Assembly: GCA_001662655.1 (NCBI GenBank)
Contig: KV460213.1
Direction: 5' to 3' (one strand)
DNA: 64,000 nt
Source of the DNA: Pseudogymnoascus verrucosus
Taxonomy: Eukaryota
This document shows, in pieces, positions 12,120 to 53,805 of the stretch (positions are counted from its first letter, which is position 1; every line of letters begins with the position of its first letter). A model generated the notes under the pieces. It saw only the letters and a program-made list of their open reading frames with translations. It searched no databases and had not been told where the DNA came from. Position numbers and translations under genes: made by a program.

Positions 12120-13973
12120 ATGGAATCCCTCGCTGGTACAAGCTGGGATGTCGTGATTGAGGGGACGGGACTGCAGCAGTCTCTACTGGCACTGTGAGTG
12201 CCTCTGGCCTAGCTTTGCTTTGCTTTGCTCGTGTCATGTCTGACTGACGCAGCCTTTGAAGGGCTCTGTCGCGATCGGACAAGAAGGTGCTTCACGTCGA
12301 TGGAAATAACTACTATGGTGGCTCCGAAGCTGCCTTCAGCTTACAGGAAGCAGAGGCTTGGGCGGTGAGCTTAGCAGGTACGTTATGATGCTGAAGATTA
12401 CTTGAAGCTCGGTCCACTAATGCTAGTTTAGCTACCCCTGTCGCGCCATTCTCAAAGGTGTCATTGCGGAAAGCAGAAACGAGCACGTCGAGTGCGAAGA
12501 AGCTGTCCCCTTCACGGGCGTACACTCTTACACTCTCGCCGCAGATCATATATGCCAGATCCAAGCTCGTCTCGCAGCTGGTATCTTCACAAGTCTACCG
12601 ACAACTGGAGTTCCAGGCTGTGGGGAACTGGTGGTTATATGAAAATACCTCTGGTGTCTTCCCGGCTGCGCATGAAGCTGGAACGCTGAAGCGCATGCCG
12701 AATGGTCGAGAAGATATCTTCTCGGACAGGAGCATTGACGTCAGAGCCAAGCGCGGACTGATGAAGTTCATCAAGTTCGTGGTTGACTTTGAGAACCAGA
12801 CAGGTGTATGGGAGACCCATGCTGATACTCCCTTCGTGGAGTTTCTGTCGTCACAGTTCCAGCTGCCTCCATCTATGCAGACATATCTTGTTGCCTTGAC
12901 TCTGTCATTGGAACCCCCGGGAGTTACATCTGTTCGATATGCCCTGCCTAGGATTGCGAGACATCTTACGTCAATTGGTGTATTTGGACCTGGCTTTGGG
13001 GCAGTAGTCCCAAAATGGGGTGGGGGTGCAGAGATAGCACAGGTTGGATGCAGAGCTGGCGCTGTTGGGGGCGCTGTCTATGTTCTGGGCACCGGCGTTT
13101 CTGACGCCGACACTGGGTCGACCGCGGTTAGCCTCAAATTGACAAATGATGAGGCTGTTCAGTCAGAGTACTACATCTCTTCGCAAGATAAGGCCATCAA
13201 AGAAATAAACTCGGACACCCCGACGGTTTCCAAGCTCGTCGCCATCGTTTCCTCCGACCTATCGTCTCTCTTCGTTTCAACCGTGGAAGGCGCCCCGATA
13301 GCAGCGGTTGCAGTCGTCGCCTTCCCGGCCGATGCGGTCGTTGTTGATGGTCAAAGCTCGACGCACCCGATATTTATCATGGTGCATTCGAGTGACTCTG
13401 GGGAGTGCCCTCAAGGACAGTGTAAGCTCAACTCTTTTTCATTTTGTTACTATGCAAGCATTCTATGATGATTCAACCTCGAATACTTATCTACATTGTC
13501 TGATACCCCTTGAAGATACAACCTCTGACAGTCTGATGAATGCTTCTCATTTACATTTTAACTATGCTCCTCGTTACAGAAGACATGCTAACATGAATTG
13601 ATTTTAAGATGTGCTATACGCCAGTACCACCAATATTCGGAACCCGAAAGGGCGCTTGGAAGCAGCTCTGTCAAAGCTTTTAAAATCCGCGGATGCTCCA
13701 CGTGCAGACGCGGAAGGTTCGGAGCAGGATGCTGTTCTCTTCGAGATGTATTATGAACAGTCCCGTTCCTCAACTTCAAACCTGGCGTCTAGCACTTCAT
13801 GTGCCTTGCCGTCTTCATCATTGGACTTGTCATTTGACGACTCTATATTGGATGACGTCGAGGACGCATGGCGTCGTATTATGGGGAGTCCTGAAACGGA
13901 ATCTCCATATATGGTGTTCGAGACTCGAGAGCAATTGGATGATGATGATGATAATGGCATGGATGGACTATAA
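12120..13973 (+). CDS. MRS6: Rab escort protein / Rab geranylgeranyltransferase component A (GDI/REP family), 4 exons
   Basis: Exon 1 reads MESLAGTSWDVVIEGTGLQQSLLAL, then ALSRSDKKVLHVDGNNYYGG; also REDIF, PKWGGGAEIAQVGCRAGAVGGAVY and GECPQGQ/YVLYAST. Introns 12194-12261, about 12378-12426, and 13422-13608. Acidic C-terminus. Confidence 0.88.
13456..13545 (+). ncRNA. snR62: Intronic box C/D snoRNA, snR62/U34(SNORD34)-like, with a second guide
   Basis: Box C ATGATGA 13465-13471, D' CTGA 13500-13503, C' TGAAGA 13511-13516, D CTGA 13533-13536. An 8-bp terminal stem pairs AAGCATTC (13456-13463) with GAATGCTT (13538-13545). The D' guide CTTATCTACATTGT is complementary to LSU rRNA ACAAUGUAGAUAAG (rRNA sequence recalled). 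It lies in an unusually long 187-nt intron. Confidence 0.88.
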
Positions 13974-15381: not shown

Positions 15382-18033
15382 ATGTCGACATTTATAGGGA
15401 AAGGGGTGGAGGGTGCGTCAAATACGGTTGCGGAATTAGCAAGGAGAGTAAACATACCAACGACGGAGTCCAGTCTACCGGGCCAGATCGAAGCAAACAC
15501 TGTCGATCCGTGGACGGAGGCTGGAAAATATGCGCTGGGCTGGACATACTTTTGCGCGGTGATGGTGTTTCTGGTTTCTGCAACGCGTGTATACCACTGG
15601 TGGACAGACAAGATGAGACAGGCGCTGTACAAAACAGAGGTGCAAAAGCACATGCTGGCCTATTCGCCAGAGTCGGAATATGCCATGAGCAATATGGAAA
15701 CAAGTAACACGGTTGATCAGCTCTTCCCGCGCGAGATTGAGAAGCCAATTCGACCGGACTATCAATCGTCTGCCTCTTCGATAAACTTCATCAATGATAC
15801 GCTGGCGTTATTTCGATGGATCTTTTATCGCCCGATTCCAGAAATCAACTATTATAAGAAGAAGCGCCTTAGCTTTCCCTCCTTGGCAGTGGTGGGCATA
15901 ATATTTATCGCATTGGCCTTCGTTGCTCTCTACTGCTTCCTACCACAGCCACTGTACTGGCAAAGCATGGCTTTCGGCTCCCCTCCCGTTGCTATCCGAG
16001 CCGGGATGCTGGCTGTGGCCATGACTCCATGGATTGTGGCTTCATCCATGAAAGCGAATCTGATAACGATGTTAACGGGTATTAGCCACGAGAGGCTAAA
16101 TGTGTTGCATAGATGGGGCGGATATCTATGCTTGTTCCTCGCACTCGTGCACACAGTGCCGTTTTACATGCAGGCAGCCAGCGATAGCAAGGGCTATGAA
16201 CAGTTCCAACTCCTGTTTCCAAATACCAGTGGATACATCTTCGGAACGGGAATCGCCTGTCTCGCACCTCTAGGATGGCTTTGCATCGGGTCCCTGCCAT
16301 TTCTGCGCAGCATGGCGTACGAGTTATTCCTCGTTCTCCACATACCAGTCTCAGTAGCCTATGTCGGCTTGCTATTCTGGCATTGCCGCAACTTTCTCAC
16401 GTCTTGGAGTTATCTCTACGCCACCGTTGCGATCTGGGCACTCTCTTATTTCATCCGAGCGTTCAATTTGAACTGGATGAACCCGAGGAGGCTATCATTC
16501 CTCGTCGGCGATGAAGCGGCTGTCCAACTGATGGCTGAGAATGCGATCAAGGTCACTATACCCACGCAGATGAAGTGGCGCCCAGGCCAATTCGTATACC
16601 TGCGAATGCCCGGAATCTCCGTTTTCGACAACCATCCATTCACAATTTCGTCTCTGTGCAGTGAAGATTTCCCCTCTGATTACGGCGAGTTGTACCGAGA
16701 TTGCACTGTAGTTTTCCGTCCATTCGGTGGTTTTACTCGCAAAGTGCTCGAGACGGCAACCGAGAAGGGCCCGTTCCAGACGTATCGAGCATACCTTGAT
16801 GGGCCATACGGTGGAATGCAAAGAGAGCTTGCAGCTTTTGAGACGGTCGTTTTGATTGGAGGCGGAAGTGGTATTACAGCAATTGTCTCACAGCTCTTGA
16901 ATCTCATCAAAAGAATGAGAGATGGAAAGGCGGTGACCCTTAAGATCGAAGTTATCTGGGCGTTGAAGAGGCTTGAGGCGATGGATTGGTTCCGAGAGGA
17001 ACTTCGCATCTGCCGCGAGTTTGCACCGCCGGACACAGTAACTTGCCAGTTTTTCGTGACTGCCGCTGTAAGGCAGAGCAGGATACAAGGGTTCAGCGAG
17101 CGCGCGCCAAGGCCTCTCAGTAATATGTTCCACGACAAGCTAGACGGCTTTGTGGCGGGTATTGCGTCGAAGAGGAATTCGGCGCTGATCCGAGACGAGG
17201 CACAGGGTGATCCAGAGAGAGAACGAGAATTGAGAGAGGAAGACCAGGATGCTATTACGGCCTTACCGCGCCAAAAACACCTACAGCCGACCGTCTTCCC
17301 ACCACCTCCAAAACAAAGTTACAATGGCGCCCCAGCCGATCCGGGCTCTGCACGAAGGGCATCACTTAGAGCCCTAGAAGGCCGCAGAGAAAGCTCGGAC
17401 GATGACCACTCCGCCACACGAAACTACCTCTCGCCGAACTCATCAAGGCTCAGCAGCAACCGCGAATTCCACTTCCCCCCTCCATCTCCCGGCCGCAATG
17501 CACCACACTTCCAATACGCCCCGCCATCTCCCAATAGGGCCTCTTTCTCTCCCCAGCTATCCGATGGGCCCCAATCACACCAATCAACCCCCTCGCAAGG
17601 CTCTGGCGCCTTCCCTCCCCCACCACCACCCGCACACGTCCGCACCGGCAAATCCCTCGACCTCTCTATCACCATCCCCTCAACCGGCGCACCCGCCCCC
17701 TCTGCAGCTGCAGACTTCGACTTCGGCTTCCCGAGCACACCAACCGAGTTCCAGAAGAACTTGATGCGCTTCGCCTTCGTGAACCCGCTCAAGAAGAAGG
17801 AGGGTTGGTCGACTGAGTATGGTCGCCCGGACTTGGCGTATATGCTCAAGGAGATGGCGACGGGTGGTGCGGATGGACGTGGTATCCTGGGGAGAAGGAC
17901 GTGCGTGTTTGTGTGTGGACCGCCGGCTATGCGTATTGATGTCGCGAATGCGGTGGCGGGGCTGCAGGCGGATATCTGGGGAGATGATAGTAAGGATGAG
18001 ATTTTCTTGCATACGGAGAATTATGCGATATAG
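15382..18033 (+). CDS. Ferric reductase-like transmembrane protein (FRE/NOX family), intronless, 883 aa
   Basis: Heme-ligand histidines in LHRWGG..LALVH and FLVLH..LLFWH; FAD motif HPFTISS; DGPYGG; NADPH motifs GGGSGIT and FVCGPP; C-terminal LHTENY. Confidence 0.92.
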   Translation: MSTFIGKGVEGASNTVAELARRVNIPTTESSLPGQIEANTVDPWTEAGKYALGWTYFCAVMVFLVSATRVYHWWTDKMRQALYKTEVQKHMLAYSPESEYAMSNMETSNTVDQLFPREIEKPIRPDYQSSASSINFINDTLALFRWIFYRPIPEINYYKKKRLSFPSLAVVGIIFIALAFVALYCFLPQPLYWQSMAFGSPPVAIRAGMLAVAMTPWIVASSMKANLITMLTGISHERLNVLHRWGGYLCLFLALVHTVPFYMQAASDSKGYEQFQLLFPNTSGYIFGTGIACLAPLGWLCIGSLPFLRSMAYELFLVLHIPVSVAYVGLLFWHCRNFLTSWSYLYATVAIWALSYFIRAFNLNWMNPRRLSFLVGDEAAVQLMAENAIKVTIPTQMKWRPGQFVYLRMPGISVFDNHPFTISSLCSEDFPSDYGELYRDCTVVFRPFGGFTRKVLETATEKGPFQTYRAYLDGPYGGMQRELAAFETVVLIGGGSGITAIVSQLLNLIKRMRDGKAVTLKIEVIWALKRLEAMDWFREELRICREFAPPDTVTCQFFVTAAVRQSRIQGFSERAPRPLSNMFHDKLDGFVAGIASKRNSALIRDEAQGDPERERELREEDQDAITALPRQKHLQPTVFPPPPKQSYNGAPADPGSARRASLRALEGRRESSDDDHSATRNYLSPNSSRLSSNREFHFPPPSPGRNAPHFQYAPPSPNRASFSPQLSDGPQSHQSTPSQGSGAFPPPPPPAHVRTGKSLDLSITIPSTGAPAPSAAADFDFGFPSTPTEFQKNLMRFAFVNPLKKKEGWSTEYGRPDLAYMLKEMATGGADGRGILGRRTCVFVCGPPAMRIDVANAVAGLQADIWGDDSKDEIFLHTENYAI

Positions 18034-18273
18034 GCTTCTTGGGAATGGGATTGTATCTTAGCAAGGCGCATGGGGGGGTTTGACGCATGACATGATGCGA
18101 AGGGGTTTTGATATATTTATTTTATACCATAGTGACTTATACAGTCGTCTCATTTGAAACTAATTGAATACTCCAACATCCAATATTATACAATCGTGAA
18201 CTTAACGGATGGTATCCGCAGCAAAACACCACATCCTAATATCTAGTTCAATATCCCTTCTCCCTCCTACCCC

Positions 18274-18585
18274 TTACTCAGGCTTCGCCTCCTGTTGTTG
18301 TCCCGGCCGATCCACCTCCTCAGCATGTTCAAACACACCACCCATCCCATTCTCCTCCCTCTTCACCCTCCCCTCCCTATCCCACCCCTGCATTCCCCAT
18401 CCCTTCTCTTTCAGACCCCTCTGGCGCTCCACCTCAAACGTATCATGACGCTTATTCTTAGAGCTCCAGAGGAAGGAGAAAAGCGCTGTAACGATGATGA
18501 ACACCGCGATGAAGCCGACCATGATTCCAATCTCCTGCCTGTTATTCGCGTGCAACATCGGCAGCTTGGGGGTTTCGGCGACCAT
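18274..18585 (-). CDS. Small single-pass membrane protein of unknown function (103 aa)
   Basis: ATG start in good context (AAAATG), one clear hydrophobic helix (IGIMVGFIAVFIIVTALFSFLW) followed by a basic stop-transfer segment (SSKNKRH) and a charged tail. Confidence 0.65.
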   Translation of the reverse strand: MVAETPKLPMLHANNRQEIGIMVGFIAVFIIVTALFSFLWSSKNKRHDTFEVERQRGLKEKGWGMQGWDREGRVKREENGMGGVFEHAEEVDRPGQQQEAKPE

Positions 18586-19158
18586 TTTCGCGGATGGGTG
18601 TGTGTGTGTTATTGCGTCTCGCGACGTTGAAATCCGGGGTTGATTTGCGGGGTATTGGGGTATTTGTGGGTAACTCGTGGTGGTTTTGTATGTGTTTTTG
18701 GAGTGAAATATCGGGGTTCACGATGAAGACCCTTTATGGAGTGATGTGAGAGTGGTGTGAGAAGCTGGATTTTCTGGCCCTGGGTTGTCATTGCGTCATA
18801 GATCGTTCCCCTTTACCCCTCGAGTGGCTGTTTTCCTTAGTGTAATGTGGGGGAGGGGATTGTGGGGAAGGGGGTAATGACGTAGTGTCCATTGGGGGAT
18901 TTTGAACTAGTGTGGTCGACCGTTGCGGACACTACTCGCGCCGTACAGCCTAGTGGTATAGTGCAACCAGTTACAGAGGTTATAACGGCATATAGACTCT
19001 TAGTGTTGCTGTCTCTGTTCTTGTATCGTCTTCGTCTATACGGAGTATAGAGAGTACATCATGGCACTAGCCAACAAGGTGCTGTACAAGACTAATTTTT
19101 GATATCCAAGTGTCTCTATAGTTCATAGCATCACCGGTTTTTCTATTTACACGTCCCC

Positions 19159-22100
19159 TTATTCCACTACTTCCATCCCCGCGAGAGAGGCCTTACTCAC
19201 CAAAGTAAGCGGATGCTCCGGCCCCAGCACACGCGTCCTCCCCTCAAACGCCGCCTCCAGGACCCGCTGAGCTTTTCCCACATTCTTCTCTCCCTGCCTC
19301 TTCAGAAAAGTCCCATAATTGTGCAGCGTAAGCAGCGTGTCCGGGTGCTCGTTTCCCAACTCCTTTCTATGATTATCCAGCACTTCCTCAAATATCGCGA
19401 AAGCGCGGCTTGCTTTCTCTGGTCCAGAATCTCCATAGACCCGCGCCAGACCCTCTTTCGCTCGGAAGATGAAGTGATGGTCTGGCCGCAGGACAGACTT
19501 GCGCGATTGAAGCACCACATTATATTCTGCCTCGGATTCGGCGTTCTTGTGTAGATCCTCATGTGTCCGCGCCAGAATCTCAAGCGCGTCGATTAGGTAC
19601 GGCCGCTTGGAGCGGGTGCATTCTTTGATCGGGTCAAAGCCCATCATGGAGGGATCGATGGCACGCAGCGCCATGCCCTCTGCATCCTCGAAGCGGCCTT
19701 GATACACCCAAACCATCGCTAAGTTCATCGCGACCCCTCTGGTGATTTCGTGGGTGTCATCATACTTCTCCTTACATCTCTCCAGAATGTTAATGAGCAG
19801 TCTTTCGGCCTCGTGGTAGCGGCCGAGATCGAAATACGCGATGGCTAGGTTTTGCTGGCTTTGTATCAACTGGGGATGATATTCATGTAGGCTTTGGTCG
19901 CGCTTCTGCATGTCGCAGACCTCTTGAAGGCATTCGGCTGACTTGACATACAGTCCTTGCATTCGATATATCACTGCCAGGCCCTCTTTCGCGTAGGACA
20001 GTTCTGTTTCCGTTTCCATTGCGCGTCCCATACTTTGTATGACCTTATTATACTGCTCCTCCGCAGTAGCATATTGGGCCTGAGTTCCAGCTAGCATTGC
20101 CATGTTTGTGCGCAACTGAAGAGTAACAGGGGCATCTGGACCCATAATGGCAGTCCAACCCGTCAGCGCTCGATCAAAGTGTTTCTGGGCCGCCTCGTAG
20201 TTGTCCAGCTCGCGCTCCGCATCTCCCAAGTCCTTTAATGACACGAGGAGATTATATTCATCCAGCTCCAACCCTTCCTCATATGCCCTCTCCCGATCAA
20301 ATACAGCTATATTGTACATGTTTACCGCCTCGGCCGCCTCGTAGGTGTCGTAAAAGTAGTCGCCTGCTAGATGGCAAATATACGCAAACTGTGGTACTCG
20401 GTAGCGCCCCAGCACGTCGAGACGCGCCAGTGCGGTGATATGCGGTACACACATCGCTCGGTTCAACAAAAATTGTTCGGATTTTGGTTCTAGCTGTTCG
20501 GTCATCGCTGCGTAGAGAATATCTGATGCGAGGGTAAACCAGGTTAATTCCGTGTCAGGAGCTACCCCAAGGCTCTGAATGAGGAAGCAGATAAGATCAT
20601 GCATGGTGTATGACAGTCCAGTCGTATGATCTCCTTCTACTGCCTGCTCTAGCAAAGATGCTTTTTTGAGCTGATAAAGTTCCTCTTGTCGTCTCGTCGT
20701 ATCTCCAAGCAAATTCCTGACATTTCGACACAATAGGGGCTTTTGGATAGCAGGGGTGGCTCTTGTTTGTCGTCTGAAACAACTCCAAATGGATTTTTTT
20801 CGTGTTCCCATTGAAGGAGTAGCTATTTCTTCGTACTTGAATGATGAGAACAGCCGAATGGGTATATTATCGGGGCACAAAAATGACAGTAGCCGCAGGA
20901 GATCCGCTCGGTCATGACATGATTCCTCCAGCTCTGAGAATGCAACATTAAAGAGTTTTGCCAAAGGGCGTATCGAAGTATCTATAGCACTGTAGCGGTG
21001 GCCCAGAACCTAAAGTACCGTCAGCATTCCAGCATCAGAGTATACCTCTCGCGTCTTCTTTTACCTTCATCTTGCCATCTTTATTGCTCAGTACCTCCAA
21101 GAGACCTTCCAGATGTCGACCATCTCTTTTCTGGTAAGAGGCCGCCTGGGCAATGGCGATGGGTAAGTTACCGAGAAGGTGAAGGATTTCTCTTGCTAGA
21201 TCTTTCGTCTCTTCCTTTGTCTCGATTGTGGGCGGTAATGCACAGCTTTTAAGAAATAAATTCAAAGAGTCCGATTCCTCCATTTTTTCCAGAGGAATGC
21301 ACCTCTGGATTCGTCCCGAATCTGTGGTTTTTAGATTTGCAAGATCCTCTTCATTTGTAGTAATCAGTATCCTACCCGCCGGCGCATCCGTTGGGAGGTG
21401 TTCAAAGAAAGAGACAGCATGGGATGTGAAATTGTCGATTACAAGTAACCACCCTTTCCCTCCACTTTCCGCCCTTTCTTCCAACCACCTGCAAGTTTTG
21501 GAAATAGCATCCGGATCGCCAGAGGAGAGGCCAAGAGTCCCAATAAAGCTCGCACGTGCGCTCTCAAAGCTATCTCCATCAACCCAGATAACATCGTCTC
21601 TTTTCCGTTTGCTCCTACGGATATAGGCAAGTGCAACTTGGGTCTTGCCCATCCCATGCATCCCGTAGATGGCTACTGTGATTGGGGAATCATCCTCTTC
21701 ATCTTCGTCCTTAAAAGCGGCGTCTATGAGACCAAGCTCTTTCTCCCTACCACTAAAGTATTTCGAAAGAGTTCGGCGAGGATAGCCACCTTTCCTATGT
21801 GGAATTAGCTGAGTTCAAGAAATATATGCCTTCTGTTCCCACCTTTGTAACACCTTTCCTGTGACTCGAGGGTTAGAATATTGAGTTGAAATAAAGGCTC
21901 TAGAATGGGAGTTACCTTCTCCCCGAAGTCCACCGAGGCTAACTGTAACCACAACATTAGCTTCAATTCTGCCCATGTATTAGGCTACAAGCCTAATAAT
22001 TAGGCCACCCACTACCTCTAAAGTCGCTTTGTTTTGCCAATTGATAAAAGGACTTAATTGCTTCGCTGATTTTAATGAAATTAGTATCGTGCGCACTATC

Positions 22101-23054
22101 AAATTTATTCATTCCGCTGTGGTCTGTCTCCAAAGCACATCCATCACTGCTGTCGGCCAAGCAAGCCGACTCTTGCGGCACAATCTAAAACTCTTAGCAC
22201 TTTATCATAGGTGATTCTCAGACCTAAAATGTTTACCATCACCTTGGTCTTACTGTCAGGTACAGTTTCATAGAAACAAATCACTTTGCAGTGCTTATAA
22301 CGGGCATGCATGCTACTCTGCAGCTCGAATAGTGTACTAGATCCTTTCTCTAACTCTTGTATAATGGACAGGTTAACCATGGCCAAGTCTATAGACTTCA
22401 CAATTGTTAAGATCTTATTTGCTGCTGTCGCGGCCGTGGTCCCGGTGTGCGGTGTGCCGAGATATATGATACCAACCACGGACTCACACAGGAGAGAGTA
22501 CTTGTCTGTATCAAGTGCTGCAGTGACGAGAGCCTACAAATATTAGAAAGTCAAACGCTTTATACTACCATCGATGACTTGCCTTCTTTATAATTATGCC
22601 GCCAAAGCTATGGCCGATGAGAATAAGTGGTCGCGCCTTGTTCTGAATCGAAACGACAAGGTGATCAGAAATTGCAACCCTGAGAGCGTTTTCAAACTCA
22701 CTTTGCTCCTATGCAAATCAAGAGACCTCAGCAGACTGCTGCCACATTGATACAGATTGTACTGTGGTACACGCCCAACATAATGCGTGTTGCAACCCCA
22801 TGCTGAGATACGGGCACCTGGCACTACTTTGGGAAGGAGATCCTGAAGCCAGTTGGTGCCATTACGCATCCAAGTCCAGTACGGGTGTGATCCCAGTCCT
22901 TGGACGGCAACAATACTGAATTGACTGTGTTAGCTAGAACTCGGTAGACCAGCCGCGGAATTAGATATATATACTCAACGATTGGCTCCGAGTATGTTGC
23001 CGTTCCTTCGGCGAGGATTGCCATACCATAGTCGGTTTCAGCCGCGGGGTCCAT
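19159..23054 (-). CDS. Fungal NLR (STAND) protein: N-terminal alpha/beta-hydrolase (SesB/PGAP1-like), NB-ARC, TPR repeats; 9 exons
   Basis: Spliced reading gives DIVAVQGLG, WLQDLLP, LIGHSFGG (nucleophile elbow), YLGTPH, CFYET, DHSGMNKF; then FSGRE, P-loop GMHGMGKT, Walker B WLLVIDN, GRILITT, GNLPIAI, MHD; then TPRs with HPDTL/HPLTL-type motifs. Introns 22916-22974, 22643-22701, 22534-22582 (GC-AG), 22185-22236, about 21943-22011/22014, 21859-21915, 21795-21842 and 21010-21064 all keep frame. Confidence 0.9.
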
Positions 23055-23265
23055 TGCAGCAAATGGCAGGCAATATTTACAACAATCATTCGCTTCTGCT
23101 ATAAATTATACTATAATGCCATTTCAGGAAAATATGTATGGCTAAAATTCACGAGATATTAGAGAGATTGGAGCTATCTAAGGATAGAAAGATAGGTCCC
23201 AAAGTGGAATGGCGCGGATCCTTCCACGGTCCAAGCACGCACATGACAATAAAAACAACCAATAT

Positions 23266-23299
23266 GTCGCGAGACCAGAGAGGTCGCGAGACCAGAGAG
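23266..23299. repeat. Perfect tandem duplication of 17 bp (GTCGCGAGACCAGAGAG x2)
   Basis: Read directly: copies at 23266-23282 and 23283-23299, in the divergent intergenic region between the NLR and the small gene. Confidence 0.9.
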
Positions 23300-23540
23300 G
23301 AATGGAGCCTCTAACTCGATTCAGTCGGGGAGAAAAACCAATATAGAATCAATGTTTATTTTATCAGTATGCATCTCAGGCCCGCAAAGAATAAATCCGA
23401 TGAACTAACTAGTTGTTAGAAGTTTTTAAGGTCTCCGTGAACCACTTGCTCTGGGAAAGGAACGGGATGGTAAAACTATGTATTGCTCCAGGGAAGTGGA
23501 AGGAACAGACGTCAGTGAGGCTGGGGCAATACTCTACGAG

Positions 23541-23548
23541 TATAAATA
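23541..23548 (+). promoter_or_regulatory. TATA box candidate for the small gene at 23723
   Basis: TATAAATA about 180 nt upstream of the ATG, followed by a CT-rich stretch (23610-23690) typical of fungal core promoters. Confidence 0.55.
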
Positions 23549-23722
23549 CACTAAAGCTGAGCTGGGGTCTGCACATCCATAGATAGCACTAAAGTATATT
23601 AATATCCAGCCTCGCCCACTCCCCTCTCACAGCTCTCTTCCTTTCCTCTAGTCGATACCTTGTCCCATACCTATCATCCCTCTCTTTCACGACGACAGCA
23701 AGAACCAGAAACGGCAGCAACC

Positions 23723-24034
23723 ATGGGGAACAGCAACAGTTCCCAGTACGACGTACGCAGCCCCGTCCCGTCCCGTCCTGCCCCGTCCCGTCGTCTAACC
23801 ATTGCTAAAACTTTTCCGCGCCCACAGGACCGCGAAACACAGGAGTTCCACAGCCTGCCCAAGTCCAGGACACGCGGCGTGCGCACCGACCAGCGCACCC
23901 CATACACCCAGCAGCAAAACATGGGGTACAGAGCGCAAGATCAGAATGGAGGGCGCCAGCAACGCGGGTACAACCAGCAGCAGTATAGCGGAAACCGGGC
24001 TCGGGATGACAGGGACGACGATCCGTGCTGTTGA
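23723..24034 (+). CDS. Small Q/N/G/Y-rich, probably lipidated protein (78 aa spliced; intron 23753-23827)
   Basis: Kozak-like CAACCATGG; intron GTACGC..CTAAC..CAG. Product: MGNSNSSQYD/DRETQEF...YTQQQNMGYRAQDQNGGRQQRGYNQQQYSGNRARDDRDDDPCC, followed by stacked stops TGA TAA TGA. Confidence 0.75.
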   Translation: MGNSNSSQYDVRSPVPSRPAPSRRLTIAKTFPRPQDRETQEFHSLPKSRTRGVRTDQRTPYTQQQNMGYRAQDQNGGRQQRGYNQQQYSGNRARDDRDDDPCC

Positions 24035-24827
24035 TAATGAAGAGTTTTGCTCTATTGGCAAAGATGACCCTGTGCGGGATCATTTCATGGAAGTTAATCT
24101 TAGCGTTGCTGAACTGCGCATGGCAACTATTTTTAGATCACTACCGGCGCCTGTAGTTTCCTTCTCTGTATCCAGCTCACTACCAAGCTTTAACTCGTCT
24201 GCGCTAAAATGAAAATACCTCGAAAGTGACGCAAAGTTTCAAAATACCTTGTGCGCTTTCCAATTACGCCAAGCTCTAGAAGTGGCCCTCTATTTCCCCT
24301 AACCGCTAAGGCGGATATCAGGCCAGGGTCTCGCGGCCTACAGCCTATCATTAAACACATACAACCGCTGTAAAAACAGAGCCGAGGTCTTTAATGTCTA
24401 ATAATGGATTTAACAAGGGGATTCATGCATGCTAAGTTGTATCATCACATTGTTAGGAGTCGTGTGCATATGTTGGTGTTTCAGTAGATATCAAAAGACC
24501 CAAGGTGATTTGCGAACTAGACAGCTGCAGGGTTTGGCAGCGGCTACGTGGGGACTGTTCTAGTTTTAGTTACTATTGTTGCGAGAGATGATAGATGAAA
24601 TGATATCAAATGTTTTTTTTTTTCAATAATGTGTTCGGCCCTTTTCCATTGGGCATTGAGTGAGTGTGTAGAATTGAATAATATATTCTAGAGCCAAAAG
24701 CAAACCCTTCTATTCGACCAAAATATATTCCTCATGGAAGCCGATGAACAAACCGAGCTATATGGTCACACATCCCAAAATTTCAACTCATTTTCCAGCC
24801 ATTGAAGCAATACATTGCCAGGAAGTC

Positions 24828-27800
24828 TCACACAGCAAAATCCACGCTCCCTTCAAACATAGCCACAAAGTCCATGTCAAACTCTCCCAACCAGTCCGGC
24901 CTGAGCACCTCCTTCTTCACTGGAATTTCCACCCCCATCTCTTCTCCTGTCTCGTCGTGGACTTCAGTCTCAGCGTTAGTCCCAGAGGAGGCAAAGTGGC
25001 TTTGCTCATCTGAGAGTACATCATCCACCCGCACCCTTTTCTCAGGCAGCTGCAATAGATCTGTGGACCCTCCTCGCTTCAAAACCATCCCCTCGGTCGT
25101 ACTCACTCGGTTACTGCTCGCCGTATATTTGTCATAGTCGAGAACAGCATCCACGAAGCTAGACGTCGCTTCAAGCATTGGCTCTGCTTCGGGAATTTGC
25201 TCTCCCCCAGGCAGTTGTTCGGCTTCATAAACCAAACTGTCCGGGATATCGTCCCCAAAATCTCCAAATGGAGTCCCTGAATCTGCCAAATCGGCCATAT
25301 ACCCAGGGTATGTATCATCAGCAGATGCATCGCCCTGCTCCAGAAGCCATGGTGGAGAAGGGAGATCGTCCCCACTCAAACCATCCCCATCAGTATTTTC
25401 TTTTGGGCCACTCTTCTCCAGGAATGCGTCATACGGCCTTGTGCCATTTCCGTATTGTGCCAGCGGTTTCTTGTTTCTCAGCATCTGAACTGGTTCCGAA
25501 TTAGACACGTTCGAGTGCAGAGCATGCAGCTTTCTATAGTCCCTTGGAGCGAACTTCTCATAACGAGGAGGTGGCCTGTTTTCTGAAAGGTCGATAATCT
25601 CCATGTCGTCAAACTGATAGTCATTCTTATCAAATTCCTTGAGAGCCAGTTGTTGGGTCATTGACTTATTTACAGATTTTGACACCTCTGCATCAGCAGT
25701 TTCTTCTGGCGTTTTCTTCGTCTCTTTGCTAGCATCTTGCTTTATCTTCTTCTGCAACTTGCGTGGCTTGTCCAGCCCTTCATGGCAACACTTGTGCTTG
25801 CAAGTTTTACCGTTCTTCAGTGCATTTCCCCCTCCACATATATGATTGCATGTCCATTTACCATTAGCCATCTGAACTGGCTCGGGTCGCTCTACATTGT
25901 CATGTTCTTCAGGAGCTGTTGTTTGCTGATTCGCAATATCATCAATATCAATGAACTGGTCGGACACGGTATTGTCATCCACTGCGTGCCCAGCCGACTC
26001 CTCTGCACTCTTGACAGCAGCAAGTAAATCCTGGTCTGGAATGTCATCATCCCATTCAAAATCAGCATCGCTGTCTCCGCCACCATCATCCGTGCTGAGT
26101 ATGACCTTGGGAACAACCTTCTGTGCAGGCTGTACCACAGGAAAGAGCGAGTCAGGAATATTCGGTGCTAGAATTACAGACTGAACCGTCCCAATAATCC
26201 CATCACAGGCAAGGAAACAGCTTATTGCATCACTAGAATTCGACAACTCCGTAGAAAAGTGCACTTCGAACCCCTTCTCCAGATTCTTAATATTCCCTCG
26301 CCAAAAGTGCGCCAGGTTCCCGTTGGAGACGCCAGCCACGAAAGTCAATGAGATCTGCCGATGCCTCCAGAACGGGACCTTGTGGTTTTTCAAGTCAAGC
26401 CGCGCCCTGATCTTGACCTTGGGTAGTTGGCCTAGTTTGACAATTCTGCCCATGACCTCTACACTCAAAGTTAGGCGCGGGAATGATTTCAGGGAGTCTA
26501 GTAGCTTGTGGCCAAATGGCGGATTCCTGGTCAAAATCCGCTCAATCGTCGCGGAATCAGTTGCAATGAGCTTTGCAACGCTATTTATTCCAGCTGTAAC
26601 CATTTTCTTGACAACTGCCGGCCCAATGCTGGGAATCTGTCTTAGCTGCAATGGGAGATGTTCCCAGAATTCCGCAGATATACTTCTTGACAACTCCAAG
26701 GCGTTCTGCGTTGCCAGTGCGTCACAATCAACTGCTTTGCAGTCGACAATACATCGAACCAGTCGATGGATTCGTTCAAATACTATGGCTTTGTCGGTCT
26801 GGTACTGCCTCCTATTGAACTCCTTGTCGTTGGGAGGATCCACGCCACCAAGTTGAACTTGTATGATGAGCGAAATTTTGTGGGCAGTTGCTGAGACATT
26901 CTCCTTGACAGGGTATTTGATAAATGGCGACCTGTTGAACTCTCGGAACGCCGCCCGCTCTGTCGGTTTCATTCTCAGGTCTTTAAATTCCGAGGCTTGA
27001 GATATGATATGCAACTATCAAAATTAGTTTCCAAAACTCAAGCTTGTGAGATTCACTAACCATTTGGCCCATTCCCGCGTGTTCGGGGATGCTCAGTAGC
27101 AGCTGCATAGTCTCGAATTTTACCATATACTTTGACATTGCCTGGCCGTATTCCGTGCATATGAATCTTTGGTCAGAAGTGACGAGCTTGGTATCTTGAA
27201 GCATTTTTATATCCCGCTCACAGACCTGTTCCAGTCTCTCGTCGGGATCTCTACTTCCTGTATCACAACTGAATTTGTAGTAAGTAGGATTTTGCTTCAT
27301 GCGGACACTCATGAACGTTCCGGCAAGCCATTGCTTTGCGGAGTATAGATCACGGACAGTACCAAGGCCAATCTCCGAGTTCAGATGTTCAATGAGATTT
27401 AAGTGCAGCGTACTTTCAAGTACATCCTGACCTGATATCATCCTTTTGTAGCGGTCAATGCTAGATTGCCGCGTCATGATTATTGCAACGGCCGAGTCAT
27501 CGAATTGCGGTCTCCCAGCTCGCCCAAGCATCTGCATGACTTCAAGATCTGAATATTCCGCAAGTCCGCCATCCTGGTATCCGACCGTGCCTTTGAGAAC
27601 CACCAAGTGACAAGGAAGATTAATGCCGACAGCCAACGTTGACGTACAGCATATCACGCTGATTTGCCCATTCAGATACGATTTCTCAATCACCATTCGA
27701 TCACCTGGATCCAATCCAGCATGGTGGTAAGCAACGCCTCTGGCAATTAGATCTTGGAGATCCTTGCTGCTCACTGGTACCCTCGTTGTAGGAGAAGGCC

Positions 27801-47637: not shown

Positions 47638-50600
47638 ATGGCGGCCGCCACGGTGGATATAGGGTTCCTCTCTGGATACCTGAACCTACCACAACCGTCA
47701 CTAACAGAGGCTCTGGACTCACCAACCACGGAGCTTGTCAACGCTGTCCTTCTTGCTGTCAGCACCAAGGCTCGTGAACACCAGGAGCTTGAAGCAGATA
47801 AACACCAGGTCGATACAGAGTTGGAAGCGGCCATACTTGGCTCAGAAGCCAGAACGAAAGACCTACAGCAAACCGCGGATAAGGCCCTGAAGGAAGCAAA
47901 TGAACTCCGAGAGAAGCTTGCCGCTGAAGGTACAATTAACCTAACAACTCTTGCGAACAGCTAGCTAACGGACTTGATAGAAACCGCACGCGTTTCACTC
48001 GACACCGAGCTTCAACAACTTAAATCCTCGTCATTCACTTCATCATCAGAAGCCGACAGCCTGCGCGCTCGCATTACCAGTCTCGAAGGCGCCAACCGCG
48101 ATACCCTCTCAATTGTGGCATCAAAGAGTGCTGCAAACGATTCACTTGCACAAGATCTCCAGAAACAACACCAGAAGGGCCTGGAGCTAAGCCAACAAGT
48201 ATCGACGTTGCAGCAATCAGTACAAAACGCAAACTCAGCTCTGTCAAGCGCTAAATTCCGCGAGCAAAATGTGCAGCAGGAACTCGAGCAGGCCAAGAGG
48301 AACAACGAATGGCTTGACAACGAACTGAAGACGAAAAGCGCAGAGTCCTTGAAACTCCGCAAGGAGAAGGGTGCACGGATCGCAGAACTACAACGACAAA
48401 ACGAAGAAGTCACCGCCAATTTGGAAGCTGCGAAGCGCACCGAGACTGCACTGCGCACTCGACTTGAGGAGGTGCAGAAGAAGGCAGAGGAGTCCCTGGC
48501 TAAGGTTCAACAGCTCCAGGAAATTGCCGCAAACACAGAAGAAGGGTTCAGACAGGAGCTAGAGAGTTCAAGGCGTCTCGCCGAGCTTCAGACGCAGCGA
48601 ACCGAGACCCAAACCAACAGATTGAACGATCTAGAGGCGCAACTGGATAAAGCAAAGGATGATTTGGCGGCAGAGGTAGCAAGGCACCAACAAGATGCTG
48701 AGGCAGACTCCCAGGAGCGAGACAGGCTAGAGCACCGTATCGCAGAGCTCGAAGCTGAAGTTGATCGACTCGAGGCTGCTGCATCTGCCACATACCCTGC
48801 CTCTGTTCCAGGAACTCCAAGACAGGGCCTCAATGGCTTATTCCGAAGTGGTTCACCAGGTGTTTTTGCAACGCCTGGCTCGACAAGGAAGTCTACCATT
48901 ACTGCAACACAAGCAATTGAAGAGCTGTACAAGGTTAAGGGTCAATTAGCGACTGAACGACGAAGAACCGAGCGCCTTACAGCTGAAATGGAGGATATGA
49001 TGCAGGGTCTTGAGGCAAAGCAGCCTGAAATCGAGGAAATGCAACATGAGCACGAACGCCTCCAACAAGAGATCGTCGAGATGTCTAAATTCGTCGACGT
49101 GACCGGCAAGGAAAGGGATAGGGCGAAGAAGGATGCAAGAAAGGCTCTCAGCGAAGCCAAGACATCCCAGGCTGAGTTGGAGATCCTCCGACAGCAGTTG
49201 CGCGATCTCAGTGTCCAAGTAAAGATGCTCCTATGCGACTTGGATGCCCAGCAAAGAGGAATGGACTCCTTAACAGGGCCAGAGCGCATGCAGTTGGAGC
49301 GTCTGGCACGCGGCGAAGTCAGTGAAGACGCCCTTCAAGGTCTCACTGACACGGACAAATTTATCAGCCAACGCCTCACAGTGTTCCGAAGTGTAAGCGA
49401 TTTACAGGATAAGAACCTCGAGCTACTGACCCTCACAAGAGAGCTCGGCGCAAAGATGGAGAGTGAGGAGGCTCTTGCCGAGAAGCACAAGGCCTCGCAA
49501 GACCATGAGATGGTGCAGCAACTGGAAAGGAAGGTCGAGCAATGTAATGACGAGATCCGTTCCCTGGTTGCCAGGTCCGAAAGCTACATCAAGGAGAGAG
49601 ATATGTTCCGACGTATGTTGCAGCACCGTGGTCAGCTACCTCCGAACTCTGACCTCGAATCTGTTTTCGGCCAATCCGTCAATGGCGAGGTCGTAACCAG
49701 TGTCGAGACTCCAAACGCGAAGGACAGTGCCAATTACGCAACTCTGTTGCGCGAACTCCAGAGCCATTTCGACCAATACCGTGAGGAGCAGTCTATTGAT
49801 CGCCGAACTATGAAAGAGCAGGCAGGAAAACTTGCGTCGGAGAAGTCTGCACTGCAGTCTGAGATTGCCAAAATCAACAGCCAACTTACACTCGCCAACG
49901 AGCGTTACGAAATGCTTCACGCTAACTACGCCATGCTCCAAAACGAAAACGGTGAGCTTCAAAAGCGCTCTCAAGTTCTTTCTGAAAGCGCAGCGAAGCA
50001 GGATCTTAGGACCCAGCAGGTTGCGGAGGACTTGATCGAGGCAAAGGGACTTGTCGAGAGTATGAGAAACGACATTGCCAATCTCAAGGCCGAGAAGAAG
50101 CTGTGGACTGAAATTCAAGGACGTCTCAACGAAGACAACAACAATCTGATGAACGAACGAAGCCAGCTTAACACTCTGCTCGCCAAACAGCAAAACCTAC
50201 AAAACGAACGCGAACTGACAGAATCCGAGTCGAGACGTAGATTGCAGACGCAACTCGAGACTCTCGAGTCGGAGCTTTCTGCGACAAAACGGAAACTGAG
50301 CGATGAAGTCGAGGACAACAAGAAGGCTCAATTACGGAAAGAATACGACACTCAACAAAGCCAGAAGCGCATCGACGAGCTTGCTACCTCATTAAGCACG
50401 ATCCGCGAGGAGTTGGTTGCAGCAAAAACCACTCGCGATCACCTTCAAACGCGCGTTGATGAGCTGACAATTGAGCTGAAGAGCGCTGAGGAGCGTGTTG
50501 AGGTCCTTCAACCGAGACCAACCCCGCGACCGGGAGCTAACGGTACAACCGCTGGTGACGAGCAGGCAGAGCAGGATGCCATCAGCAGAGAGCAAGAGTT

Positions 50601-53600
50601 GGGCATCGAAGTTTCAGAACTTAAGAGAGATCTCGAATTGGCGAAATCGGAGCTTGAGAACGCAAAGACCCAGACCGAACAATACAAGGGCATTAGCCAG
50701 TCTTCAGAAGAGGACCTCCAGAAGTTCCAAGAATCCCAAGAGGAGTATCAACAGGAGATGGACAAGATTATCGAGGAGAAGGATGCCAAGATCCGAGAAT
50801 TGCAGCAGCGTGTTGATGATCTCTCTACTGAGTTGAGCACCACGGATACTGAGCTCAACAATCTTCGCAACGAGAAGGCTGAGACCGCCCGCCGTACTGC
50901 GGAGGATAAGGCTGTATTGGAAGCGGAGATTACGCGGTTGAAGGACGAGGATGAGCGACACACTCTCGCCTTGCAGTTCCACCAGCAAGACTTGCGAGCC
51001 CAGGCGGAGATTGCGACAAAGGCACAGCAAGACTACGAAAACGAACTTGTTAAGCATGCCGATGCCGCCCGACTTCTACAGGAATTGCGCACTAGTTACA
51101 ATGTGCTGAAGTCAGAGTCAGCAGGCCTCAAATCTGAGGCAGAATCAGCAAAGGTGACTCTGAGCCAAAGTCAGGCCTCATGGGAGGAGCGACGAAACCA
51201 ATTTGAGAAGGAGCTCCAGGAGCTGCGCCGCCGGAAGGACGATATTTCTTCCCAAAACACAATTCTCTTGCAGCAGTTCGAAAGCGTTAGTGCGCAAGTC
51301 ACGGCTCTGCAACAAAGCCGCGCTGCCGCAGCTGAAAATGGCGACGCGGAAACTGCAGAGGCGACAGCGACTTCAGATAAGACAGTTGAAGGCCTCCGTG
51401 AGCTCATCACATACCTTAGACGTGACAAGGAAATCGTCGATGTACAATACGAGCTTTCCATCCAAGAATCTAAGCGCCTCAAGCAGCAATTCGACTATGC
51501 CCAATCCCAACTCGACGAAGCCAGACTCAAGTTGGATCAGGAAAGGCGTGCCCAAGCCGATGGGTCCCGCAGCAACTTGGCTCATAAAGACCTCATGGAG
51601 AAGATTAACGAGCTTAACCTCTTCCGCGAGAGTAGCATTACTCTCCGCAATGAGGCCCGACAAGCCCAAGCCCAACTGGCAGACAAGACAAAGCAAGTCG
51701 AGGAGCTTATGGAGAAGATCCAGCCCCTGGAGAACAAGGTCCGGGAGCTTGAGAATGCCAAGGAGATGCAAGATGGCGAGGTGAAGCTCTTACAAGAAGA
51801 CCGTGACCGCTGGCAGAAGAGGAACCAAGAGATCCTCTCGAAGTACGACCGTATCGACCCCGCTGAGATGGAGCAGTTGAAGGCTTCGCTGGCTTCGCTT
51901 CAGGCTGAGCGTGATGCACTTACAACCGACCAACAGCCACTTCAGGAGAAGGTGCAGACGTTGGAGGGCGAGAAGGCGCAGTGGCAGGTGTCGCGCCAGA
52001 AGCTGATCGAACAGGCGAAGGAGCGTTCGCGTGTACTTACTAAGGAGAAGAACGAGCGAGTTGCCGAACGCACTGCTGAGAGAGATGCTGCGATTCAGGA
52101 GAAGGAGGCGCTCGAACAGCAGCTGTCAACCGTCCAACAGCAACTGAACACTTCCATACAGGAGAGACAGGCTCTGGAGGAGCAGTTGACACGCATGAAA
52201 GCCGAGAGTGAAGCTAACAAGGAGGATGCCACGGCAGCACCCACTACTGATGCCACTGACAGCGCAAACCAGCCGCAGGTTGCTACTGAACAGAATGCTG
52301 CGGTTGACCAACAACTCGACGCGGTTCGCAAAGAGCTTGAGGTTGCAAGGAAAGAGAAGGAAGACGTCGAAGCACAACTTGCAAATATCCGCCAAGAACT
52401 TGAGACCGCTCGAACTGAAAGAGATCAAGCCGCAGCTAGAGCAGCTCAAGCCGAAGCAGCAAAGCCTGCACCGCAAGCCGATACTTCAATGGATAGTACA
52501 GAGGAAGGCCAGGTGGATGAAACTGCTCCATCAAAGCCCACCGACGATGAACGCAAAGCCCTTGAAGAACGCACTCTTGCTGCCGAAACCAGGCTTCAGC
52601 AACTCGAGGAGTCTGTCGAAGCTACACTCAAGCAGAGATCCGAGAAGATGAAGACAGCACTCAACAAGAAGCTCGCCGAATCAAGAGACACTACCAAGGC
52701 TGCTCTCGAAGCGGAATATGCTCTCAAACTTGAGCAAGAAAGAAAAATATGGCTCGCCGAACAAGGCGCTACTGAGCCAAAGGTGCCGGCCACTCCGAAG
52801 ACTGAAAGTGCTCCAGAGGCTGCACCGCCAGCTACTCCCTCAACACCATCGGCAAAACCTCCTACTCCAATGGGCGAACTCACCAACCTCACCGATGAAC
52901 AAGTGCGGACTCTTCTCACCACAAACGCCACACTGAAGAATATTTTCACTGGAAACATCAGGAAAAAGATTGAAGAGCAGACCAAGAAATTGAAGGAAGA
53001 GTTCGAGAAGGAGAAGGAAGAGGTTGTGAAGAAGGCTGATGAAGCAAAGACTAAGGCTGTAATCATGGAGGGCAAAAAATCAGAGCTAAAAATCAACTTG
53101 ACCAACAACAAGGTTAAGATGGCTGCAGCTAAACTGGAGGTCGTCGAGAAAGCTGCTACTGACACGCCTGACAAGCCTGTTGGCGAAGTTTGGGAGATTG
53201 CCAAGAACGCGAAGCCGCCGCCCAATGTCGTCCCTGCCCCGGCACCGACTCCAGCCGCTGGCTCTGCTATCCCTACTCCAGGTGCCAAACCTGAGGGAGC
53301 TCCAGCCGCGTCCGGCATTCGAGCACCGTCTGTTTCTGTTCCAGGAACATCGCAAGGCTCGCGTCCATCGACCCCCTCTACCCAACAACCCCAGGCAGCG
53401 CCGGCAGCTACGACTCCACAAGGCCCGGCTCAAGCCAATACTGCTCAGGCACAAGGTTCAAACATACCTGCTGTAAGTCTTACTTCTACTATATCCCGGT
53501 CTGGTCCTAAACTGACCTCTGTCCAGCCGTCTGGAATACCATCAGCACCAGGAGGGCCCCGTACTGGTCTTCCTGTACCTAGAGGCGGCGGCGCTCCACG

Positions 53601-53805
53601 CGGAAGAGGTGCGTACCAAGCGCCTCGCGGACAGAGCGGCATTGGGCGCGGGAGAGGTGGAGGTCAGAACCAAAGAGGCGGAATGAACGCTGGTGCTCCA
53701 ACATTTGCTCCAAATGCTGGAACCAAGCGACCGCATGACGATGGTGGAGGCGTAGGACAGCAGAAGCGGATGAGAGGTGGTGGTGGCGGTGGTGGTGGAC
53801 AATAA
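47638..53805 (+). CDS. MLP1: Nuclear basket coiled-coil protein Mlp1/Tpr (introns 47930-47980 and 53473-53526)
   Basis: About 2000 aa coiled coil with ISQRLTVF, KERDMFRRML, AQQDYENELVKHA, YLRRDKEIVDVQYE, LNLFRESSITLR; RGG-rich basic C-terminal tail. Confidence 0.93.

What the first reader, a model, noticed from the sequence alone, without database searches (positions are those of the whole stretch)
19159..24034. Head-to-head pair: lipase-NB-ARC-TPR NLR and a tiny lipidated, Q/N-rich partner; candidate undescribed fungal immune module
Seen: the NLR ATG (23054, minus) and the small gene ATG (23723, plus) diverge across about 670 bp that hold a TATA box and a 17-bp duplication. The pair lies between the ferric reductase/small membrane protein genes and MER3. 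Established: fungal NLRs are often encoded next to their functional partner (nwd2/het-S; ses-type clusters with alpha/beta-hydrolase effectors), and plant NLRs guard RIN4, a small disordered protein acylated on C-terminal cysteines. Inference: this NLR already carries its own hydrolase effector, so the neighbour is not a standard downstream effector. It could be a membrane-anchored guardee or decoy read by the TPRs, or an amyloid adaptor that recruits the lipase to membranes.
Basis: partly seen in the sequence, partly recalled or inferred. Interest (0 to 1): 0.8.

Follow-up and report, generated by a model that had tools for sequence, protein, structure and literature searches.

The report
Fungal immune receptor with lipid-tagged partner
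In the fungus Pseudogymnoascus an immune-receptor-type gene with a lipase-like head sits head to head with a tiny gene that has no relatives found outside the genus; both are spliced, and the small protein, predicted to carry lipid anchors at both ends, is likely a bait or self-marker that the receptor watches, although binding and cell death are untested and chance neighbourhood remains almost as likely.

Summary
The window (Pseudogymnoascus) has an intact 9-exon, 1147-aa hydrolase/NB-ARC/TPR NLR and, 668 bp away on the other strand, a 78-aa gene (MGNSNS...DPCC). An RNA-like run shows spliced ends for both. The small protein has no Pfam family, no paralogue in this genome and no homologue found outside the genus. 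Wherever it could be placed (5 named strains, 3 DNA runs) the NLR lies beside it. Fused MER3 models suggest both are missing in 2 strains; 12 of 20 MER3 rows stay unresolved. In one run a block from the first TPRs through the small gene is 11-13% diverged against 4-5% flanks. Best reading (0.45): a linked NLR-plus-partner locus working like plp-1/sec-9 or Bcvic1/Bcvic2, with a dispensable, predicted doubly lipidated decoy instead of a SNARE. Rival (0.38): chance neighbours in a syntenic, variable interval. The amyloid-adaptor idea and RIN4 or CYSTM membership fail their tests. Binding, lipidation and death are untested. The scan had not noted this on other DNA.

The parts
19159..23054 (-). NLR gene, 9 exons (23054-22975, 22915-22702, 22642-22583, 22533-22237, 22184-22016, 21942-21916, 21858-21843, 21794-21065, 21009-19159), 1147 aa, hydrolase/NB-ARC/TPR
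   Evidence: an X18 contig covers exactly exon 2 and runs on into the end of exon 1
22026..23054 (-). N-terminal alpha/beta-hydrolase (SesB-like/DUF676) domain; GHSFGG Ser110 (22607-22609), His239 as inferred catalytic His
   Evidence: triad assignment inferred from family knowledge
20998..21772 (-). NB-ARC domain: P-loop GMHGMGKT, Walker B LVIDN, GNLP; the MHD follows at 20596-20604
20767..20802 (-). basic, aromatic, Cys-containing loop (aa 601-612, core WSCF) kept in 7 of 7 orthologue sequences; possible membrane-binding or S-acylation patch (inferred)
19162..20382 (-). TPR sensor region (TPR_12/TPR_10; kinesin-light-chain-like by sequence)
20053..20184 (-). TPR segment aa 807-850: least conserved sensor part against 03VT05, 05NY08 and 23342 (68-70%), and unalignable at 80% in run X10
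23055..23722 (.). 668-bp divergent spacer; TATAAAT at 23541 and 23100; exact 17-bp tandem duplication at 23266-23299 (probably strain-level slippage)
23723..24034 (+). small gene, exons 23723-23752 and 23828-24034, 78 aa; predicted N-myristoylation (MGNSNS) and terminal Cys-Cys; low in hydrophobic residues, rich in Q/R/D
   Evidence: splice end and unspliced read-through of the stop to 24194 in X18
18274..18585 (-). flank: 103-aa small membrane protein, kept in strains that appear to lack the pair; not part of the module
15382..18033 (+). flank: ferric reductase, 883 aa
24828..29537 (-). flank: MER3 helicase

Best explanation
An intact hydrolase/NB-ARC/TPR NLR gene and a spliced 78-aa gene lie head to head and are found together across Pseudogymnoascus strains; they likely form one non-self-sensing unit in which the small protein, predicted to be tied to the membrane by lipids at both ends, would serve as the bait or self-marker read by the TPRs. 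Shown: anatomy, splicing, genus-limited range, conserved termini, linkage. Inferred: Gly2 is myristoylated and the terminal Cys-Cys is S-acylated, which stretches a disordered loop along the plasma membrane. The TPRs (variable segment aa 807-850) would bind it. The strain's own version would leave the NB-ARC switch off, while a foreign allele after hyphal fusion, or a version cut or modified by an invader, would trigger oligomerisation and let the Ser110 hydrolase attack membrane lipids and kill the cell. Because the partner appears dispensable, it would be a decoy and not an essential guardee.
For: Linkage: adjacent locus tags in 4 named strains and one tag apart in a fifth; same order and orientation on single contigs in runs X10 and X22, and cover of both genes in X6. 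Joint absence: MER3 models of F-4513 and F-4246 run on into sequence matching window 19071 or 18809 and the membrane protein, leaving room for the pair only inside an unusually long intron. Joint deep divergence in X10: NLR 363/2884 (12.6%) and small gene 40/357 (11.2%) against the MER3 side 117/2826 (4.1%) and the left side 166/3561 (4.7%); in control X22 all are 13-14%. In 24MN13 both genes are closer to this window (98.6%, 98.7%) than MER3 is (95.5%). A second, diverged tandem copy of the small gene lies in 05NY08. Cys-Cys is kept in 7 of 7 small proteins and Gly2 in 6 of 7, the seventh lacking exon 1 in its model. Precedent: lipase-type NLRs with a linked partner; terminal Cys-Cys palmitoylation of Yck2.
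Against: All carriers are in one syntenic genus where the flanks co-occur too, so co-occurrence is not independent. Joint loss is one inferred event in two sister strains, read from gene models and not DNA. 12 of 20 MER3 rows are unresolved, and four of them have two unidentified genes in the interval. The deep block is one run and could be introgression or hitch-hiking. Type-A partners differ by at most about 17%, much less than Bcvic alleles (60% and 66% identity). A Logan contig of 8188 bp carries own-like TPRs (89-97%) with a 72%-identical type-B partner, so allele classes are not visibly matched. 0 of 10 NB-ARC paralogue loci has such a neighbour. X18 appears to be a mixture of strains, so co-expression in one cell is not shown.
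Confidence: 0.45

Rival explanations
1. Chance neighbours: an ordinary stand-alone SesB-like/NB-ARC/TPR NLR lies next to an unrelated lineage-specific small membrane-associated protein. They stay together because the genus is syntenic, were lost together by one deletion, and diverge together in X10 by linkage or introgression.
For: This NLR architecture is common and this genome has further NB-ARC-like matches, 11 besides itself on 10 loci. None of the 10 paralogue loci has such a neighbour. NLR identities between strains (79-85%) roughly follow MER3 (88-90%). No matched allele classes are visible. No shared sequence between the two proteins.
Against: The partner class looks rare: none gene-like among 8 candidates in 600 kb. 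The X10 block spans the NLR from its first TPRs through the small gene and ends close to it. No strain with the small gene alone was found. The small gene is tandemly duplicated beside the NLR in 05NY08.
Confidence: 0.38
2. Toxin-antidote pair: the NLR lipase is leaky or active by default, and the co-transcribed small protein is a membrane-tethered inhibitor; loss or dilution of the partner, for example after fusion with a strain that lacks the locus, releases killing.
For: Shared divergent spacer and apparent joint absence. Presence/absence incompatibility is known in Podospora (V/V1, passage). A second partner copy in 05NY08 fits a dosage need.
Against: The P-loop and MHD are intact in 6 of 6 orthologue models, as expected of a normally auto-inhibited receptor. 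F-103 has the NLR, and no small protein of that strain was returned by the searches (one unexamined tag lies at the expected place).
Confidence: 0.1
3. Amyloid adaptor: the Q/N core of the small protein templates an amyloid that recruits or activates the NLR at membranes.
For: 14 of 30 core residues are Q or N, with G and Y.
Against: Known amyloid-signalling pairs have a motif in place of the NLR effector and the same motif on the neighbour. This NLR starts with the hydrolase, has at most 8 Q/N in any 30 residues, and its best local match to the small protein has E = 8. The small protein is 23 of 78 charged.
Confidence: 0.04

Closest known systems
Bcvic1/Bcvic2 of Botrytis cinerea (bioRxiv 10.1101/2022.04.03.486892; passages)
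   Same: NLR with the same N-terminal Pfam family (PF05057/DUF676 serine esterase) next to a polymorphic partner gene, in a related class of fungi
   Different: Bcvic1 is NACHT-ankyrin; Bcvic2 is a syntaxin; alleles are 60% and 66% identical; the role is shown by deletion. Here NB-ARC-TPR with a 78-aa orphan and no functional data.
plp-1/sec-9 (Neurospora), het-z (Podospora), vic2 (Cryphonectria) (review PMC12881547 section 14; PMC10197012 passages; the primary paper was not held)
   Same: lipase-NB-ARC-TPR receptor with a nearby partner that it binds; guard model; death needs the lipase and the P-loop
   Different: patatin rather than alpha/beta-hydrolase; the partner is a conserved t-SNARE, whereas this one is genus-limited, without a known fold, and apparently dispensable
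SesB-like/NB-ARC/TPR fungal NLRs, e.g. Podospora Pa_2_10340 (PMC4986451 passages)
   Same: identical domain order; the NLR itself is an ordinary member
   Different: no repeat-number variation seen among 6 orthologue models; no small lipidated neighbour appeared in the passages seen
RIN4/NOI proteins (PMC3661340 passages)
   Same: small, poorly structured, C-terminal cysteines for acylation, proposed NLR guardee or decoy
   Different: no NOI motifs, not a plant protein, and a predicted second anchor at Gly2; analogy only
Yck2 C-terminal tail (PMC3145546 abstract) and CYSTM/CYSPD proteins (PMC10840359 passages)
   Same: fungal glutamine-rich disordered segment ending in palmitoylated Cys-Cys (Yck2); 60-150-aa palmitoylated proteins linked to stress and pathogen resistance (CYSTM)
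   Different: no Phe-Phe element or kinase domain; only two (type B, two or three) cysteines after an acidic stretch; no Pfam match

Membership tests
Fungal SesB-like/NB-ARC/TPR NLR | N-terminal alpha/beta-hydrolase with nucleophile elbow | tested here: met
   DUF676 at cut-off, GHSFGG at aa 108. The exon is missing in 3 of 6 public models; this is probably an annotation slip at the GC-AG intron, because the F-103 model lacks it while being 99.8% identical elsewhere.
Fungal SesB-like/NB-ARC/TPR NLR | NB-ARC with P-loop, Walker B, GLPL-like and MHD motifs | tested here: met
   sensor-1 reads ILITTN in 6 of 6 (Arg is usual there, recalled)
Fungal SesB-like/NB-ARC/TPR NLR | C-terminal TPR array | tested here: met
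Fungal SesB-like/NB-ARC/TPR NLR | lipase activity, oligomerisation, cell death | not testable with these tools
   needs experiments
NLR + linked partner incompatibility loci (plp-1/sec-9, Bcvic1/Bcvic2) | partner encoded next to the NLR | tested here: met
NLR + linked partner incompatibility loci (plp-1/sec-9, Bcvic1/Bcvic2) | partner is a SNARE or other conserved trafficking protein | tested here: not met
   no Pfam family at E<=1; homologues found only in Pseudogymnoascus records and one unnamed Logan record
NLR + linked partner incompatibility loci (plp-1/sec-9, Bcvic1/Bcvic2) | deeply diverged, co-inherited allele classes crossing species lines | tested here: inconclusive
   one deep block in X10 and excess identity in 24MN13; no population sample; an own-like TPR with a type-B partner on one Logan contig
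NLR + linked partner incompatibility loci (plp-1/sec-9, Bcvic1/Bcvic2) | physical binding and allele-specific death | not testable with these tools
   needs experiments
Amyloid-signalling NLR/effector pairs (nwd2/het-S, PP, sigma) | short amyloid motif in place of the NLR effector domain | tested here: not met
   the NLR begins with the hydrolase; 4 Q/N in the first 60 aa
Amyloid-signalling NLR/effector pairs (nwd2/het-S, PP, sigma) | same motif at the C-terminus of a neighbouring effector-domain protein | tested here: not met
   best local match E = 8; the neighbour has no effector domain; dedicated amyloid-motif profiles were not available to scan
RIN4/NOI family | NOI domain with PXFGXW and Y/FTXXF | tested here: not met
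   0 of 7 small proteins carry either motif; no Pfam hit
RIN4/NOI family | C-terminal cysteines | tested here: met
   7 of 7; acylation itself untested
CYSTM/CYSPD | 60-150 aa | tested here: met
   77-80 aa for type A
CYSTM/CYSPD | conserved cysteine-rich C-terminal motif | tested here: not met
   no Pfam family at E<=1 for P0012, P0121 or P0002; two or three Cys after an acidic stretch

The most novel reading that the evidence does not exclude
A fungal NLR with its own dedicated, dispensable decoy: a doubly lipid-anchored disordered micro-protein, encoded from the same spacer, whose cleavage, modification or foreign allele fires a lipase-armed receptor. This would be a RIN4-like bait evolved independently in fungi, where the guarded partners described in the papers seen are housekeeping proteins (SNAREs, a glycolipid-transfer protein).
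Probability: 0.25. Interest if true: 0.85.

Novelty: new variant of a known kind. Interest (0 to 1): 0.52.

Why it matters
The ligands of almost all fungal NLRs are unknown, and the role of the abundant SesB-like lipase effectors rests on indirect evidence (passages). A two-gene unit with a 78-aa candidate ligand, natural alleles, a duplicated variant and apparent null strains would make both questions directly testable in yeast. It would also test the guard/decoy model in fungi with a partner that can be deleted. If the pair proves to be chance neighbours, what remains is an ordinary NLR and an orphan small protein.

Tried and rejected
Run search: no RNA holder listed; the RNA evidence comes from one run guessed to be RNA. 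ESM Atlas: no usable hit for the small protein. Metagenome scan with the small-protein alignment: 408 pattern matches, none confirmed. The second scan with MER3 gave 2 loci from other fungi (39% and 53% identity) with no match to the pair or the other flanks, so they are not informative. Profile search of 1.84 billion representatives: 3 hits; P0122 was dropped as a repeat-rich, unrelated-looking protein. No paralogue of exon 2 in this genome at E<=10. No Rfam match in 18000-25000. The sigma-70 scan does not apply to a fungus. The unspliced 103-aa reading of the small gene and a further intron before the stop were set aside because of the X18 contigs; a minor unspliced form is not excluded. Rab-type prenylation of the terminal Cys-Cys was considered less likely than S-acylation because there is no GTPase core (recalled knowledge). 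The 103-aa membrane protein was rejected as the partner because it persists where the pair appears absent. The MER3 tree is the quick tree only, with an unsure root, so gain versus loss is not settled. Earlier scan notes: nothing for this place or sequence; 7 notes on other NLR loci did not bear on it. Literature: 8 searches listed nothing on this locus, and the locus-tag search gave 0 papers. Supplements were not opened; NLR catalogues such as those of PMC9815663 may list this receptor.
Full report
Observation. The minus strand carries a nine-exon gene from 23054 to 19159 (one GC-AG intron, two micro-exons) that gives an open 1147-aa protein, identical to public record P0005, which names VE01_02704 of Pseudogymnoascus verrucosus. 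Pfam gives DUF676 at its cut-off, NB-ARC and TPRs. GHSFGG, P-loop, Walker B and MHD are present. The plus strand carries a two-exon gene, 23723-23752 and 23828-24034, of 78 aa, identical to record P0012. The ATGs are 668 bp apart, with TATAAAT at 23541 and 23100 and an exact 17-bp duplication at 23266-23299.

Expression. No RNA holder was listed. I laid 4 of the 23 listed runs. In X18, guessed to be RNA, one contig covers exactly NLR exon 2 (22702-22915) and continues with 10 letters equal to the end of exon 1. A loose end after 23753 equals the start of small-gene exon 2 with one substitution. Another contig runs unspliced from 23940 to 24194, across the Cys-Cys-stop. The overhangs are only 10 letters and the tool did not list them as joints. 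X18 pieces range from 1 difference in 214 to 27 in 170, so it appears to be a mixture of strains. Both genes are spliced somewhere in that sample; co-expression in one cell is not shown.

The small protein. It has no Pfam family at E<=1, no Atlas hit and no paralogue in this genome. The word search gave 4 clusters and the profile search of 1.84 billion representatives gave 3 hits, one of which I dropped as spurious. All named homologues are from Pseudogymnoascus; one is an unnamed Logan record. Cys-Cys is kept in 7 of 7 sequences and Gly2 in 6 of 7. The termini are conserved and aa 22-36 vary. MGxxxS fits the N-myristoylation consensus (recalled). A terminal Cys-Cys after a glutamine-rich disordered stretch is palmitoylated in yeast Yck2, which also needs a Phe-Phe element that is absent here (abstract of PMC3145546). 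Lipidation is therefore predicted, not shown. Q+N is 19 of 78 and charged residues 23 of 78. A second, diverged type B (ends SSCCF or SSCCC, with an internal duplication) is VF21_03802 in 05NY08, directly between the type-A gene and MER3. Genes of this MG..CC kind look rare: 8 candidate starts in 600 kb against 3 in a shuffle, none gene-like by inspection, and none in 10 NB-ARC paralogue loci of 10 kb each.

Linkage. Locus tags are adjacent in the P. verrucosus record, 24MN13, 03VT05 and 05NY08, and one tag apart in 23342-1-I1. F-103 has the NLR and one unexamined tag before MER3. Runs X10 and X22 carry both genes in the same order and orientation on single contigs, and X6 covers both in fragments. 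Of 20 Pseudogymnoascus MER3 rows, 6 have an NLR protein found. In 2 (F-4513, F-4246) the MER3 model runs on into sequence matching window 19071 or 18809 and then the 103-aa membrane protein; keeping the pair would need an intron of over 1 kb for the small gene or about 5.7 kb for both, so I infer that both are absent. This comes from gene models, not DNA, and the two strains are sisters. The other 12 rows are unresolved: the NLR search covered only proteins of 1078 aa or more, and four strains have two unidentified genes between ferric reductase and MER3. No record of the small gene without the NLR was found, but the search could have missed one. Because the flanks co-occur too, this linkage alone is weak evidence.

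Divergence. In X10 the stretch 20184-23067 differs at 363 of 2884 sites (12.6%) and the small-gene piece at 40 of 357 (11.2%), while the MER3 side differs at 117 of 2826 (4.1%) and the left side, including the last third of the NLR, at 166 of 3561 (4.7%). The spacer and 20062-20183 do not align at 80%. In X22 the NLR region, small gene and MER3 differ alike (14.0%, 12.7%, 13.0%), so a faster intrinsic rate does not explain X10 (Fisher p 9e-32 and 3e-7 for X10, 0.33 and 0.93 for X22; sites are not independent). The unalignable segment is TPR aa 807-847, the same segment that is least conserved in the sensor against 03VT05, 05NY08 and 23342 (68-70%). The block thus runs from a variable TPR to the small gene, as expected if two interacting sites are inherited together. 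One introgression tract or hitch-hiking would look the same. 24MN13 shows the mirror pattern: 98.6% and 98.7% for the pair, 95.5% for MER3. Against the reading: between other strains the NLR (79-85%) roughly tracks MER3 (88-90%); type-A partners differ by at most about 17%; and a Logan contig of 8188 bp has own-like TPRs with a type-B partner.

Mechanism. Shown: intact receptor anatomy, a spliced neighbour with conserved termini, genus-limited range, and linkage. Inferred: the small protein is held on the membrane at both ends; the TPRs read it; a foreign or damaged version releases the NB-ARC switch; the oligomer's Ser110 hydrolase damages membranes. A conserved basic WSCF loop in the NLR (7 of 7 sequences) could place the receptor at the same membrane; this is a guess. 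I put this at 0.45, chance neighbourhood at 0.38, toxin-antidote at 0.10 and amyloid adaptor at 0.04. The amyloid idea fails the defining features of such pairs (passages of PMC5485727).

Known systems. The NLR is an ordinary SesB-like/NB-ARC/TPR receptor (passages of PMC4986451, PMC9815663 and PMC12258605; Atlas). The pair resembles plp-1/sec-9, a lipase-NB-ARC-TPR receptor that binds a SNARE (section 14 of PMC12881547; passages of PMC10197012 and PMC11138114; the primary paper was not held), and Bcvic1/Bcvic2, whose NLR has the same DUF676 domain (passages). It is not a member of those systems, because the partner is no SNARE. It is not a RIN4/NOI protein (passages of PMC3661340) nor a CYSTM protein (passages of PMC10840359). 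Passages of PMC13449251 show that both balancing selection and introgression shape fungal NLR regions, which is why the X10 block is ambiguous. Eight paper searches listed nothing on this locus; supplements were not opened and may catalogue the NLR.

Verdict. A real, expressed, linked pair. The receptor is of a known kind and the partner is an orphan. It is best filed as a new variant of the NLR-plus-linked-partner arrangement, with the functional link slightly more likely than chance neighbourhood and cheap to test. Interest 0.52.

Noticed in passing
window 24218-24559; G000:C11:326573-326937: A non-coding stretch of about 350 bp between the small gene and MER3 has a 70%-identical copy on another contig; run X10 has matching pieces on a separate contig. 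No Rfam match. It may be a decayed mobile element or a shared regulatory element.
   Followed up: partly
window 20767-20802 (NLR aa 601-612): A basic, Trp/Cys/Phe loop between the NB-ARC and the MHD is kept in 7 of 7 orthologue sequences; it looks like a membrane-binding or S-acylation patch. Only one paralogue aligned across it, poorly.
   Followed up: partly
proteins P0121 and P0002: Type-B small genes carry a duplication that includes sequence matching the 3' end of the intron (tblastn match from window 23798), so a second splice acceptor may allow long and short forms. An unexamined extra tag sits at the same place in 03VT05 and between the two genes in 23342-1-I1.
   Followed up: partly
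window 22583-22642: The exon holding the catalytic GHSFGG precedes a GC-AG intron and is missing from 3 of 6 public models, which would make those receptors look catalytically dead in catalogues.
   Followed up: yes
window 18615-18625, 23266-23293, 24327-24337: An 11-base motif from the 17-bp duplication recurs, with one mismatch, just upstream of the membrane-protein gene and downstream of the small gene; 4 matches in the window against 0.75 expected, but two are the duplication and the pattern was picked afterwards.
   Followed up: partly
window 21660-21690 region and NLR aa 430-435: The sensor-1 position reads ILITTN in 6 of 6 orthologue models, where Arg is usual (recalled); an acidic run precedes the P-loop.
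   Followed up: no
window 47965-53802 and 12395-13465: A 1946-codon open frame with strong A skew, coiled-coil-like by its sequence, and a GDI-family gene; neither was studied.
   Followed up: no
L028:5167-7035 (G000:C11): Frames that look like an N-myristoyltransferase gene (label recalled, not scanned) lie about 1.5 kb from the copy of the 350-bp element; probably coincidence.
   Followed up: no
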